Made by a program: the position numbers and the translations under genes. From Octopus vulgaris (lineage: Eukaryota): a DNA stretch of 64,000 nt. This document shows positions 3,001 to 25,300 of the stretch, one piece after another (the stretch's first letter is position 1; the number at the start of each line of letters is the position of its first letter). The stretch covers positions 51,770,001-51,834,000 of the forward strand of contig OX597829.1 of NCBI GenBank assembly GCA_951406725.2, read 5' to 3'. The notes beneath the pieces are model-generated. The model had not been told where the DNA came from. It saw only the letters and a program-made list of their open reading frames with translations, and did not search any database.

Positions 3001-3645
3001 GTCAACCTTGAGAAGCAAATCAAGGAGTGGAGTCTTCAGGTAGTCGAGTGCTCTCTTTGACTCCCTTCTGGCGACTCCAGAGTAGGTGGAGCTCTCCAGT
3101 CCTGTAAAGTAATTCACCTTGAAGGCCACTCCAATATAAAAACCTACAGCTTGCTTGTCACAGCAGGGGTCTCGGCCTGCTGATCCATTGTGGTCAGATC
3201 TCCAAGTCTAGAGTTGGGGGTCAGATTGCAAGGACTGACTCACACTTTAATACTAGTGCAAAGCAGAAAAAAAAAAACCTTGTAGGGTCAAGAAGTGGTT
3301 TACGTAGCCATTTGGGTGCATGCTGCTCTTCCTCATGAAAGCTGAACACAGAGAAACTGCCATTATCATCATCATTATCTACTTTAATATCCATTTTCCA
3401 TGCTGGTACCACATAAAAGTGCCCATGCAGTGTCACATAAAAGCATGTGTGCAGTGCTATGTAACAAGCACCCAGCATACTCCATAAAGTGGTTACTGTT
3501 AGGAAGGGCATCCAGCTGTAGAAACCGTACTGGATCAGGCTGGAGCCGAGTGCAACTCCCCAGCTTTGGTCAAACTGTCCAACACATGCCAGCATAGACA
3601 ACGGATGTTAAATGATGATGACATATATATTTCACACATACACAT

Positions 3646-19773: not shown

Positions 19774-22323
19774 CACATATAAATGTTTGATATATTTGTG
19801 GTCATTTATATGTAATACATAATGGCTTTTATTGGTGGTGGTGTAGTAGTTAGGTGAAATAGATGTTATAGGGCGAGAGAGAGAGAGACAAAGTCAACTT
19901 GTGTAGAATTTGAACTCAGAATAAAATATTGACGCTCTTATAATTCTGACCACAATAGTGTCAATGCCAACATTAAGAACAATAATACTTACACATAGAA
20001 ACGTCAGATAAAGAAATATCAAACAGTGTAGAAATATTCGGAGGAGAAGAACCTAATTTGGTCCCAGATGAAGAAGTGGTTGCAGAGGTATCTGTTGTAG
20101 TTGAACTGGTGTTCATCAGTGAAATCTGTACAGAGAAACACAAAAGAAACTCAGAACATAATTTCATAACTTCTGTGTTTTTAATCAAAGGGGATCAGAT
20201 TGAGTCTGGTGCAGCCTCCTGGCTTGCCAGTCCTCATGGAAAGCGGCTTTAGAAGAAGTGACAAGGAAGAGGAGGACTCATTATGGCACATGCTTTAAGA
20301 TGTTTCCATACTTTGGGATAAATTCCAGTAGAAGTACAAAAAGTGAAGAACTCAATGAGAATAGCAGCTAGCTCTAAGATACATTACCTGAGACTAACCT
20401 TACAGACATCTTCAACTCCAGCAAATAGTGTTGCTAAAGTGAACAGAAAAGTGGGATTCTTCCAGTTTTTTTGTTTGTTTATTCTTTTTGTAGGTAGAAA
20501 AGAAAGAATTTAGGAGTTTTGTTGGTGTGTGAAGCTGAAGACAAAACAACTCCATCAAGAGTGTTACTTTATTATTTCTTTTATTTTCAGTAGGAAAGAG
20601 CAATGCTCTGGGTTTTTTGCAGGTTCTCTAAGACCAGAAAGATCAATGGCTTTAAAAAAATGGCTCTTGGAGTGGGTTGGGGTAAAAGGGGAAAACAATG
20701 GCTCATTATTGTCACTAACTCCTACAAAAACTTTTGTGATGCCCATTCTCAGCAAGGCCCTTATTATGAATTGATTATGTACCAGGAGGTTATTGCTCTT
20801 GTCTAATCTCAGGTCACTTTTGAATGATTAGACTCTTCTGACCAAAATGTTCTAAGTATTACCCTCAAGTCTTATTTTTAGACACTGTATCAAAATTTAT
20901 TTAAACTGTGTCCTTTTCTTTTTTAAAATGGTGAGGGTGTAATTTGAGTGAACACGCTAGCAAGTGAGGTACCTGTATTGCACCATTAAAAGCCCCCGAG
21001 AAACATTTTCTGTCTAGAGTCCCTAACAAACTATGGAACTATGCAAGTGTGGTGTCGGTGGAGAGGACGACAGATAAGGGAGGGCGGAAGTAGGGCTTGC
21101 AGGGACCCGGTGCAAGACGGGAGGGCGCATGTGTGGCGGAAGCGGTCAAGCAGCACGCACGTGTCGCGATCAACGAAGGGGCAGTTGGAGCTGAGACGAA
21201 GAAGCGACTGGACGTGACGAGTTCCGAAGAGACCTGAATCAATGCCGAGGTAAGACCTGTTTGTATTTCCCCTCCTTCTCCTTCTGTTGTCCTCTTCATC
21301 CATCACACTACAGCAAGGAAGGTGCAACAAGAAGCAGCTCTTGAAGCAACAATGCTCTTTTCAAATTCTGAGTGTAGTCCATGTTTTTGGAATGGAATTA
21401 AACCTCTTAAAAATATCAAAATTTATTTTCCTTTCAAACAATTTATTTAGTACTTTATATTTTCCTTTTTATTTCAGTCACTCCTTTACTATCCATGATT
21501 AATCTCCGAAAGAGAGAGAGAGAGAGAATAGACTGAAATTAGCTGACTTCATAATACTCATTGTCATCAACATAACCCAGAATAAATATACAAAGCATCG
21601 ATTTGATTCTCATACAAACACTGACATGGTTGCATGATTAAAACTCTTCTACAACAGCCTCGGTTTAACAAAAGCCCTGTGATTGAAACTTAATAGATTG
21701 AAACCATCTAAGGGAACTGTTTTTGCTTTTAGAGGGTAGACTTTCTCTTGTCCATTTTAACACCACCATTCACTGTTATAAGGGCTACATATAAATTCCA
21801 ATTTTTTCTGATATTGATGGGGGACACCGAAAGTAGTCACAATCACTAAATGTCAATTCAAAAGGTAGCCTGACATTGAAATGTAATGAGACAAAAATAA
21901 ATGCCTCACTGTTCAAAATATTATTAAAATTTTTTAAATATGTTACCGTGACCTATTTAATGTGCATTAACAGGAACAAAAGAAATATTCGGTTTGGACC
22001 AATATTGAACTAAACTCGGGTAAAGAGGACCTATTTTGTGGCCATCTTGTGAAAATGGCTATTAGTGAATTATATGTTCAATCATAGATTTTCCTGTCTA
22101 AACCATTACAAACAGAAAAGTTTAATCCATTGACTACAAAACCATCCAACAAGTACATATTTATTTGTTCAGGTTCATCCCATACCAGCATCATCATCAT
22201 CGTTTAACGTCCGCTTTCCATGCTAGCATGGGTTGGACGGTTCAACTGGGGTCTGGCAAGCCCGAAGGCTGCACCAGGCCAGTCAGATCTGGCAGTGTTT
22301 CTACAGCTGGATGCCCTTCCCAG

Positions 22324-22366
<43 letters not shown>

Positions 22367-25300
22367 GGAGTAAACACATAAATGTGAAACAAGGTGGAAA
22401 AAAGAGTACTCAAATACCAGTGGTAGAGTAATATGCTTTATTTAAAGCAGCAGAAAATTCAACAAAACCTGTTACTCGGAGTTTCACGTTGCCGTTCGTC
22501 GGATTCTAGCAAAAACTGTCCGACGAATGGCAACGTGAAACTCAGAGTAACAGGTTTTGTTGAATTTTCTGCTGCTTTAAATAAAGTATATTCCTCAGGC
22601 ATCTCTATCAGAAACAACCATCATTACACTTTCTAGCTGGATTCCCAACTGAGACCATGGGGTATTATCCAACCGTCTCATTCTTGATCTACTCTTATGC
22701 CCCCAATGTGCCCAATTTTCATGTTTGCACTATTTTTTTTTCAAAAGAAAGGATAACTTACCAAAGAGGGTGCCTCTAAGCGATCACTCAGACTACTAAA
22801 ATGAACAGACAAACCTCCCTCAAACAACACACTATGCTTTAAAGAAGGATTCATTGGACAATGTAGTTCTACATATACAAAAAATGGGGGAAAAATTACA
22901 TGATGGTCAAAAATCTTCACAATCAGAGCCTATATGAGGAACAAAAACAATAGAAACAAAATTAAATTAATGAACGGAATATGTGGTTATAACATTCTGA
23001 AGAAGAATAAAAGATTATGTCATAAACTGTTACCATTTCTTGAGGAGTGGCTAAAATTTGAGATGGAACTTCTACTGAAGTAGGAACACCAACTGGTAAC
23101 TTCACTGATAAAGAATTGGTATTAACTGCTAATGTTGAAGAATTTGACAAATCAGTAGTTATTGCTGGAAGAAGAAAAAAAAAGAAATCTTTAAAAAATT
23201 GTAAAAAAAAACCCAACAAAACAGAATGGAATTGAGATTATGAATCTTTTATCTCTTACTTATTTCAGTCACAGGATTGTGGCCATGCTGGTGCACCAAC
23301 TTGAAAGGTTTCAGTTGAACAAATCAATCCCTGTACTTAAATTATATTTAAAACCTGGTACTTATTCTATTGGTCACATTTGCTGAACTGTTAAGTTACT
23401 GGACACACACACACACACACACACAAAACAGGTGTCTTTCAGTTTCCATCTACCAAATAATTAACAAAGTTTTGGTTGGTCTAGGGCTACAGTAGAAGGC
23501 ACTTGCAGAAGGTGCCACACCATGTGGCTAGGAAGCAAACTTACCACATGGTCACAGTCAATTTTCTTATTAATGACAGTTTGAGAAGTGAATATCCAAA
23601 CTGACAGTCATACCAACAAAGAAACTTTTACATGGTCAAGCAACTTGTCTGGTATGTTGTGATTATAGTTCCATTAAATCAGTACCAAAGTGAGGAAGAG
23701 GGCAAAGGTCAAACAGTAACAAAAAAGGACACATTGGCAAATGTAGACCTTCCCAAATACATTGATTGGGAGATCCAAAGCTGGAACCCTTTTGATCACA
23801 AGTCTACACAATTAGGGCAGCCCTCAGGTTAAACAATAACAATAAAAATAATAATAAATAATTACATCATTCTGAACTTTTAAGCATAATTTTTCCATTT
23901 TATTATTATTTTTAAAAAACATTTAAAACAGAAAATTTCTAAATATTGTTGGATCTCAAATTTGGTGTTACTGTGTGGTTAAAAACCTAGCTTTACTACC
24001 AGATGTATTTCTTTACTACCCACAAGGGGCTAAACATAGAGGGGACAAACAAGGACAGACAAAGGGATTGAGTCGATTATATCGACCCCAGTGCGAAACT
24101 GGTACTTTATTTATTGACCTTGAAAGGATGAAAGGCAAAGTTGACCTCGACGGAATTTGAACTCAGAATGTAACGACAGACGAAATACCGCTAAGCACTT
24201 TGCCTGGCGCGCTAACGTGTCTGCCAGCTCGCCGCCTTTGATGATTTTGGTTTTAGTCCCACTGCCTGGCATCCTGTATTACAGTACTGGATTGACCAAA
24301 ACCGTAAGAGTGAAATTTAACAAATAAAAACTGCATGGTAACCTATCAAGGGTACCATTCCTATCATTGGATTATAGGATTAATCATTGTCTTGCTTAAC
24401 ACCATCACTTGGCCACTGAAGTATTTTAGTAAAGTCCACACTGTTGCAAGCATGTCTCCAGAAGACGACTTCTTTACATCCCCTCACCAACTGTGAAGAA
24501 GCTGAAAACAATCTACAGGTGTTGCCAGTTCACATCTGAGTAAGTTCAAATATCATTTAGTAATTTAGCCATGTGTGTATGTGTTTTATAAGCTCACTTA
24601 ATGAATATTTGATTTTGATAAAATATTAAGAAACAGTGAAGAGATGAAACCATTTCCAGAACCTTTAAACAATGAGCACTTGGAATAGCTTGCTTCACCC
24701 TATCTTTCTGGAGAACAGACACAAGCTGAGTTGATGACAGAGATAAAATGCAAAACAATTGATCAGTATTGAACAGTGTTACTTATATTAAAAGATACTC
24801 CTTAATTAAAAAAAAACAGAGTCAAAGAAAAGGTATTGGATTGTTAGATAAATCCTTTTGTTTCTTTTCAATGTTGTTTGAAAAATAGTTTTTATTATAA
24901 TGCTTTATGTATCTTTTTGTAGTTCTATTCTTTTACAGATTTTGTTCATCGTTTTGAAATTTGAATAAATTTTCTCTTTTCAGACATTTGATGACAGAGT
25001 AGAAAAAAAAATCAACATTTTTGACACCTGCTTCTCTTCGCTTTCAGTCAAGGTTACAAAACTGCCAAAGCTGTTTGAGGCATTTGAACTGTGTACTGAG
25101 AAGGTGCTATCACTGAAAGAACTGCACAGAAATGATTTTTACACTTCAAGAAAGAGGAATTTGACCTCACAGACCCTCTGCATTATAGTCAACTAGTTCA
25201 ATTCAATGAAGATCAATTGAACAAGCTCATCCATGAAGATCCATGCCAATCCACTAGGGAATTAGCCTAGCAGATAGGATGTTTTCCTGATACTGCTACC

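What the first reader, a model, noticed from the sequence alone, without database searches (positions are those of the whole stretch)
22430..22592. Young 74-bp palindrome in CRAMP1 intron 14 carrying a U4C minimal hammerhead
Seen: 22516-22553 (+) gives stem I CTGT/ACAG, core CCGACGA, stem II ATG/CGT closed by a GCAA (GNRA) tetraloop, GAA, stem III ACTC-N-GAGT and a GUA triplet. The inverted arm has the same CCGACGA core and a fully Watson-Crick stem II (ACG/CGT) but has lost most of the 5' strand of stem I. The complete copy is antisense to CRAMP1 and the copy in the pre-mRNA is the disabled one. Inference: this is the inverted, partly truncated terminal repeat of a Penelope-like or non-autonomous ribozyme retroelement with a non-canonical U4C core. 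It would also form a long dsRNA in the pre-mRNA.
Basis: partly seen in the sequence, partly recalled or inferred. Interest (0 to 1): 0.72.

Follow-up and report, generated by a model that had tools for sequence, protein, structure and literature searches.

The report
Octopus Penelope remnant with U4C hammerhead
This mirror-image stretch in an octopus gene's intron is one short, two-armed copy among thousands left by a Penelope-type jumping gene; its branch of the family spread with an altered core in a predicted self-cutting RNA, which here is likely locked inside a hairpin and would not cut.

Summary
In detail: a 73-nt, 3-mismatch palindrome in cramped (CRAMP1) intron 14 with a type I hammerhead register and CCGACGA core. 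It is a head-to-head pair of 5'-truncated ends (pLTRs) of a Hydra-clade Penelope-like element inserted in (TA)n. The parent is a 3.35-3.5 kb element with a ~710-aa RT/endonuclease ORF, and its hammerhead shares stems I and III with a published Hydra hammerhead. C4 is not decay: it marks whole subfamilies (2,480 exact C4 arms versus 3,700 U4), including ORF-bearing copies. All 9 unbroken ORFs seen carry canonical CUGAUGA, while an older sister subfamily is 93% C4, which suggests a reversion (order not proven). Two other octopus hammerhead repeats are also majority C4. The 'disabled arm in the pre-mRNA' is family-typical (the tail-bearing arm is the more truncated in 17 of 20 asymmetric pairs), and both arms are predicted to be locked in the hairpin in either strand. 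RNA contigs from three studies show A>G at the cleavage nucleotide family-wide. Cleavage is untested. The scan has noted similar octopus Penelope palindromes with variant cores on other DNA.

The parts
22326..22364 (.). (TA)n target tract, left side of the insertion
   Evidence: all 30 best family copies have TA-rich tracts on their flanks
22365..22503 (-). Tail-bearing arm: 5'-truncated pLTR copy, positions 3214-3352 of the parent unit; sense in the cramped pre-mRNA
22365..22430 (-). 66-nt 'tail' found on one arm only (between the two fixed 3' ends, unit 3286 and 3352)
   Evidence: 118 and 111 of 253 arms end at these two sites
22469..22502 (-). Minus-strand hammerhead lacking the 5' strand of stem I (core 22502-22496, A17 at 22473)
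22503..22509 (.). Head-to-head junction: 1-nt microhomology at 22503, then parent sequence ending in the self-complementary CTAG (22506-22509), the family's 5' truncation hotspot
22503..22591 (+). Tail-less arm: pLTR copy, unit 3198-3286, ending at the internal ATAT microhomology and joined to TATAT
22507..22562 (+). Complete type I hammerhead register with extended stem I, CCGACGA (U4C) core 22520-22526, 3-bp stem II with GCAA loop, palindromic stem III, predicted cut after A17 at 22549
   Evidence: stems I/III match Hydra-2_aMil in PMC8557442 File S2
23034..23167 (-). cramped (CRAMP1) coding exon 14, upstream of the insertion in the pre-mRNA
   Evidence: tblastn; spliced contigs of three RNA-guess runs cover only this stretch
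19994..20125 (-). cramped coding exon 15 (approximate bounds), downstream of the insertion

Best explanation
The palindrome is a single, very short insertion of a Hydra-clade Penelope-like retrotransposon into a (TA)n tract, made of two 5'-truncated copies of the element's end joined head to head, and it comes from a subfamily whose copies share a U4C change in a hammerhead core that is predicted to be sequestered, and so likely inactive, at this locus. Shown: parent element, two fixed 3' ends, arm co-variation, subfamily-wide C4. Inferred mechanism: both strands of the TA target prime reverse transcription of the same source RNA at two sites 66 nt apart; both cDNAs stop early, most often at a self-complementary CTAG at the base of stem I; their 3' ends anneal or snap back and are filled in, giving a palindrome. 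Because the junction is 5'-to-5', the antisense arm is transcribed first in either direction and pairs with the whole ribozyme. Inferred history: C4 was the master state through several amplification waves, so full-speed self-cleavage was not needed for mobility (tolerated slow or protein-assisted ribozyme), and the youngest wave likely regained U4 by CpG transition.
For: Family: 2,195 candidates, 40 scored at 92-100%. Parent: hammerheads repeat at 3.35-kb spacing around a 727-residue open frame with RWK, DKT, YRDD, CxCx5C, CxxC and CxH motifs, the Hydra diagnostics in PMC8557442 section 11; 1,014 homologues. 31 of 33 unbiased palindromes have one arm ending at 3352 and the other at 3286, as expected from two adjacent RT start sites and both-strand priming (PMC11167929, parts 1-2 read). 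Arms agree at position 4 in 49 of 49 pairs and at 11.1 in 44 of 50 versus 17 shuffled. C4 is linked to other diagnostic sites: 68/68, 38/40 and 10/11 in three subgroups, 0/88 in the fourth. Seven C4 copies carry ORF pieces 87-93% identical to the U4 protein and form one group (UFBoot 89). GGAA-loop subfamily: 1,437 arms, 93 of first 100 listed C4; divergent sister copies 18 C, 2 T, 1 G of 21 arms. Core pairing probability 1.0 in both strands. The cut site is not a truncation hotspot: 28 junctions genome-wide within 12 nt of it.
Against: No cleavage assay. The order C4 then U4 is not proven: the tree rooted on 45-57% outgroups put the root among the youngest U4 copies and nested C4 as derived (weak support), and pLTR divergence from own consensus is the same, 1.3-1.7%, in all subgroups (samples biased to exact matches). 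No unbroken C4 ORF was found among 7 ORF-bearing C4 copies, so mobilisation of C4 RNAs in trans by U4 elements is not excluded. Pfam gives no hit for the parent protein and only 2 of 36 homologues touch GIY-YIG weakly; no PDB match. The unit is longer (3.35-3.5 kb vs '<3 kb') and the tail longer (66 vs 30-40 nt) than published. The isolated plus arm gives the monomer hammerhead fold only 0.16% of the ensemble.
Confidence: 0.85

Rival explanations
1. C4 is a working, tuned ribozyme variant: in tandem element RNA two hammerheads form a dimer through the palindromic stem III and cleave with help from the element's protein, and U4C was kept or re-acquired because slower cleavage suits the element.
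For: Stems I and III and all other core positions are kept across C4 subfamilies; stem III strands form a -7.4 kcal/mol intermolecular duplex; two unrelated hammerhead repeats in the same genome are majority C4 (75 and 58 of first 100 listed); a viroid U4C variant keeps enough activity in vivo (PMC3088659 Discussion passage); a PLE hammerhead cleaves only with its protein (PMC11167929).
Against: All 9 unbroken ORFs seen carry U4; U4C 'considerably decreases activity in vitro'; hammerhead mutants did not affect insertion in vitro; T/C flips at a CpG are a cheap mutation, so recurrence needs no selection.
Confidence: 0.3
2. The 227-bp palindrome is a non-autonomous element (MITE-like or retrozyme) that is copied as a unit.
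For: Many copies have nearly the same length and a CTAG centre.
Against: Junctions differ from copy to copy, arms run from 50 bp to kilobases into the coding element, U4 and C4 subfamilies both make such palindromes with co-varying arms, and no tandem short-monomer arrays were seen in the fetched loci; head-to-head hammerheads cannot release a monomer.
Confidence: 0.07
3. The insertion was kept or shaped by the host as a regulatory hairpin or safety-disabled ribozyme in cramped pre-mRNA.
For: The sense arm lacks stem I; a 73-bp hairpin lies about 440 nt downstream of exon 14; one RNA-guess contig bridges the right end into unique flank at depth 2.7.
Against: The tail-bearing arm is the more truncated one in 17 of 20 asymmetric pairs genome-wide (p = 0.003) and has a complete hammerhead in only 21 of 33 pairs versus 33 of 33 for the other arm; the copy is young and one of thousands; exon 14 is spliced in all three runs.
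Confidence: 0.06
4. CCGACGA is post-insertion decay or chance, with no ribozyme ancestry.
For: Rfam gives no hammerhead hit; stem II is only 2-3 bp.
Against: Both arms share C4; C4 is fixed in subfamilies; the U4 sister has the canonical core and the same stems as the published Hydra-2_aMil motif.
Confidence: 0.02

Closest known systems
Hydra-clade Penelope-like elements (Craig et al. 2021, PMC8557442; section 11, passages, supplement part 2 and rows seen)
   Same: Single ORF with RWK, DKT, CxCx5C, CxxC/CxH; (TA)n targets; partial tandems; inverted 5'-truncated copy; one-sided tail; type I hammerhead with 1-nt-loop palindromic stem III. Hydra-2_aMil has ctgt/acag and actc-n-gagt-a, as here.
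   Different: A different family from Hydra-1_Obim (other hammerhead, visibly different protein); longer unit (3.35-3.5 kb) and tail (66 nt); stem II cut to 2-3 bp; U4C core in several subfamilies, whereas 25 of 25 Hydra families in File S2 have CUGA (found with a descriptor that fixes U4).
Minimal hammerheads of metazoan PLEs (Cervera and de la Pena 2014, PMC4209133; parts 1-2 of 4 and supplement 2 part 2 read)
   Same: In pLTRs, mostly solo or in opposite-strand pairs 100-700 bp apart, palindromic helix III, predicted dimer activity, low in vitro activity.
   Different: Their reported core variant is U3-A8; every row seen has U4. Stem II here is shorter and stem I longer.
Poseidon element of Anolis in vitro (Frangieh et al. 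2024, PMC11167929; parts 1-2 of 4 read)
   Same: Two adjacent RT start sites delimit the tail, both target strands are cut and extended, AT-rich targets, hammerhead dispensable for insertion in vitro.
   Different: Different PLE clade; canonical core; no palindromic insertions analysed.
U4C viroid hammerhead (Ambros and Flores 1998; not held, seen only as cited in PMC3088659)
   Same: Same core change, reported to lower activity in vitro but to suffice in vivo.
   Different: A rare variant of a tertiary-stabilised viroid ribozyme, not the majority state of genomic repeat subfamilies.
Non-LTR retrozymes (PMC7229834 passages; bioRxiv 10.64898/2026.07.22.740005 part 1 of 5)
   Same: Type I hammerhead, PLE ancestry.
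   Different: Those are head-to-tail non-coding tandem monomers; this is a head-to-head truncation product of a coding element.

Membership tests
Hydra-clade PLE | Single ORF with RT and C-terminal endonuclease | tested here: met
   727-residue open frame with YRDD and C-terminal VVY..YTG region; Pfam itself gives no hit, 2 of 36 homologues weakly GIY-YIG
Hydra-clade PLE | RWK and DKT motifs; CxCx5C linker; CxxC and CxH; no CCHH cysteines in the GIY-YIG core | tested here: met
   against PMC8557442 section 11
Hydra-clade PLE | N-terminal GxKF/Y not conserved | tested here: inconclusive
   a GNKY string occurs at residue 67; its equivalence to the motif was not checked
Hydra-clade PLE | Insertion into (TA)n | tested here: met
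Hydra-clade PLE | Length generally <3 kb | tested here: not met
   3.35-3.5 kb units; a stated tendency, not a strict criterion
Hydra-clade PLE | Phylogenetic placement with named Hydra proteins | not tested
   Named Hydra proteins were compared by eye only
PLE insertion anatomy | pLTR partial tandems, inverted 5'-truncated copy, one-sided tail | tested here: met
Type I hammerhead ribozyme | Three-stem register with NUH site | tested here: met
   same stems I/III as Hydra-2_aMil
Type I hammerhead ribozyme | CUGANGA core | tested here: not met
   CCGACGA in this copy and its subfamily; met in the U4 subfamily
Type I hammerhead ribozyme | Rfam hammerhead model match | tested here: not met
   no hit at E<=10 for this copy or the U4 parent
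Type I hammerhead ribozyme | Site-specific self-cleavage | not testable with these tools
   only contigs were available
Non-LTR retrozyme | Head-to-tail tandem non-coding monomers, each with a hammerhead | tested here: not met
   tandems seen are 3.35-3.5 kb coding units; short forms are head-to-head
Non-LTR retrozyme | Abundant circular RNA | not testable with these tools
   no raw reads; no back-joint in the contig tables shown

The most novel reading that the evidence does not exclude
Octopus Penelope-like elements have repeatedly run on U4C hammerheads as their master sequence, in at least three unrelated families and well over ten thousand copies that U4-fixed searches miss. The core toggles between C4 and U4 as a tuning switch, and the host's ADAR edits the scissile nucleotide A17 to inosine, damping transposon ribozymes through the hairpins that the elements' own head-to-head insertions create.
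Probability: 0.2. Interest if true: 0.72.

Novelty: new variant of a known kind. Interest (0 to 1): 0.42.

Why it matters
The locus itself is ordinary. The family is a natural experiment on an open question, whether PLE hammerheads need to cut: sister subfamilies with about 90% identical proteins differ at U4 versus C4 and both spread to thousands of copies, so matched constructs can test activity directly. Published descriptors fix U4, so C4 families are systematically undercounted. If the RNA-specific A>G at A17 is ADAR editing, it would be a natural case of editing at a ribozyme's cut site; inosine there slowed an engineered hammerhead about 30-fold (PMC3923133 passage).

Tried and rejected
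GIY-YIG (PF01541) search of the genome found a different, 781-aa PLE family with no link to this pLTR. Myb-family search did not reach the host gene. Rfam: only miRNA-type hairpin noise. PDB sequence search with a 36-member profile: 0 hits. Dating subfamilies by pLTR divergence gave no separation. Rooting by distant proteins was unreliable. Hammerhead-cut 5' ends as templates: no pile-up at the cut site; two arms that BLAST starts at 3245 are explained in at least one case (L075) by likeness of the two stem I strands. CTAG as a 3' splice site: no intron joint in the contig tables shown, and junctions keep the upstream TTCTAG. No RNA holder is on record among listed runs. The second read-laying on a U4 copy showed no A17 row, but 19 rows were hidden, so it neither confirms nor denies editing. 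Repeat families B and C could not be tied to a PLE ORF in 22 loci. Orientation bias in introns was not testable without annotation. Lunse et al. 2017 and Ambros and Flores 1998 are not held, so whether Lunse already lists U4C PLE variants is unknown; file 1 of the Cervera supplement could not be searched and the bioRxiv supplement is closed. Searches for prior print: 'octopus + hammerhead ribozyme + Penelope', 'hammerhead + retrotransposon + U4C', 'hammerhead/U4C/CCGA' returned no listing that points to U4C cores in octopus PLEs.

Full report
Observation. The palindrome is real: arms 22426-22503 and 22519-22596, 95% complementary; 73 nt with three mismatches, one a C>T at a CpG in stem II, one in loop III, one at the TA junction; folding z = -21.8. 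The minus arm has lost the 5' strand of stem I. The host is an Octopus cramped-like gene on the minus strand, and the element lies between coding exons 14 and 15. Contigs of three runs cover exon 14 only, as spliced RNA would.

What it is. The element runs 22365-22591 and begins at a (TA)n tract. A genome search gave 2,195 candidates; the 30 best copies have the same anatomy: TA tract, 66-nt one-sided tail, palindrome with a variable centre, TA tract (these were picked by likeness). Exact-pattern counts gave 2,480 arms with CCGAYGA and 3,700 with CTGAYGA. Fetching U4 pairs about 3.35 kb apart showed the parent: partial tandems of a 3.35-3.5 kb unit with a 727-residue open frame, about 710 aa from the first Met. 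It has RWK, DKT, YRDD, CxCx5C, CxxC and CxH, the diagnostics of Hydra-clade PLEs (PMC8557442 section 11), and 1,014 homologues in the protein collection. The published Hydra-2_aMil hammerhead has the same stem I and stem III letters and cut triplet (File S2). The published octopus family Hydra-1_Obim is a different family. Rfam misses both this copy and the canonical parent.

How the palindrome forms. Of 253 arms collected from the loci then held, 118 end at unit position 3352 and 111 at 3286. In 31 of 33 palindromes not chosen for likeness to the window, one arm has each end. Arms of one insertion agree at subfamily sites: position 4 in 49 of 49 pairs, 11.1 in 44 of 50 against 17 in shuffles, so both come from one source. 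5' ends cluster at a self-complementary CTAG at the base of the extended stem I, and the tail-bearing arm is the shorter in 17 of 20 asymmetric pairs (p = 0.003; 13 pairs equal). This fits priming from both target strands at two adjacent RT start sites, as shown in vitro for an Anolis PLE (PMC11167929), followed by annealing or snap-back of the two cDNA ends (inference). In the window the junction has a 1-nt microhomology and keeps three parent bases before CTAG. The 'disabled' arm is thus the usual one, and which strand of cramped it faces is a coin toss. Because the join is 5'-to-5', the antisense arm comes first in either transcript; core nucleotides are paired with probability 1.0 in both strands. 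This copy is therefore predicted not to cut.

The U4C core. C4 travels with other diagnostic letters: 68 of 68, 38 of 40 and 10 of 11 arms in three subgroups, 0 of 88 in the fourth (the window belongs to the 38-of-40 group). Seven C4 copies extend into an ORF 87-93% identical to the U4 protein, none unbroken; all nine unbroken frames seen (L131, L132, L181, L189, L193, L194, L203, L204, L205) have CUGAUGA. In a tree of 36 copies the seven C4 copies form one group (UFBoot 89) with the longest terminal branches (mean 0.036 against 0.005 for eight of the youngest U4 copies). A GGAA-loop subfamily has 1,437 arms, 93 of the first 100 listed C4 (overlaps), and divergent sister copies (77-91% identical) have C in 18 of 21 arms. 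The simplest reading is that C4 was the master state of the older waves and the youngest wave regained U4 by a CpG transition. Against this, the tree's distant outgroups rooted it among young U4 copies (weak support), and pLTR divergence is equal among subgroups. Outside this lineage, 25 of 25 Hydra families in File S2 and every row seen in the Cervera supplement have U4, but those searches fixed U4 in the descriptor. U4C is known from one viroid variant, slow in vitro and sufficient in vivo (passage in PMC3088659; original not held).

Beyond this family. Two other repeats met in the fetched loci have hammerhead registers with mixed cores: family B, 12,892 exact matches, 75 of first 100 C4, and family C, 232 matches, 58 of first 100 C4. 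Neither was tied to an ORF; their PLE origin is inferred from the min-HHR pattern, TA flanks (B) and inverted pairs (C).

RNA. No listed run is on record as RNA. In contigs of three RNA-guess runs from three studies, A>G appears at 22549 (A17) in 13, 11 and 13% of depth and at 22550 in 11, 5 and 8%, against 0.02% in a large run that I take to be DNA from its size and repeat depth. The signal is family-wide, not locus-specific, the control is not the same animal, and contig depth is a poor measure. The second laying, on a U4 copy, hid 19 rows and showed none at this site. A-to-I editing is the likeliest cause (inference); inosine at 17 slowed an engineered hammerhead about 30-fold (PMC3923133 passage), and G17 impairs minimal hammerheads (PMC3884650 abstract).

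Verdict. The locus is an ordinary truncated PLE insertion of a described clade with described anatomy. What is new, as far as searches 29, 58 and 90 reach and without sight of Lunse et al. 2017, is a U4C core as the master state of subfamilies with thousands of copies beside a canonical sister, and a hint of editing at the cut site. Earlier scan notes report similar octopus palindromes with other core variants; they are not independent support. Novelty: new variant of a known kind; interest 0.42.

Noticed in passing
window 22549-22550 (family-wide): A>G at the cleavage nucleotide A17 and at 1.1 in three RNA-guess runs (5-13%) versus 0.02% in a presumed DNA run; no other A>G site in the palindrome reached 5%.
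   Followed up: partly
L209-L220, L047 (family B): About 200-bp repeat in (TA)n with a classic min-HHR register; 12,892 exact matches; 75 of first 100 listed C4, 25 U4, far more than C>T at its other CpGs (4 and 6 of 100), so U4 is probably a subfamily there too.
   Followed up: partly
L238-L247, L133, L138 (family C): Third hammerhead repeat, 232 matches, 58 of first 100 C4, with inverted pairs about 200 bp apart.
   Followed up: partly
window 22506-22509; unit 3199-3203: 5' truncation hotspot at CTAG, exactly at the base of the extended stem I; may be a transcription start, an RT pause or a snap-back site. Looks like a 3' splice site but no joint was seen.
   Followed up: partly
L121-L124: A young PLE family with many intact 781-aa RT/GIY-YIG frames and tandem CCAAT/TGACGTC-rich repeats downstream; no hammerhead found by my pattern within the 9-kb stretches.
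   Followed up: no
parent element, e.g. L194 1070-1092: The youngest, ORF-intact subfamily has a canonical core but the weakest stem II (2 bp plus GCAA with an A.A at 10.1/11.1), while C4 subfamilies have A-U or A.G there.
   Followed up: no
window 22205-22325 and 22592-22650: The insertion is flanked by pieces of other repeats: the left one also occurs beside L014, and contigs run on from the right one into unrelated sequence.
   Followed up: no
L131-L140: Long insertions of the same family are also two-armed, with kilobase arms in opposite orientation and nested tandems, a large source of predicted dsRNA.
   Followed up: partly
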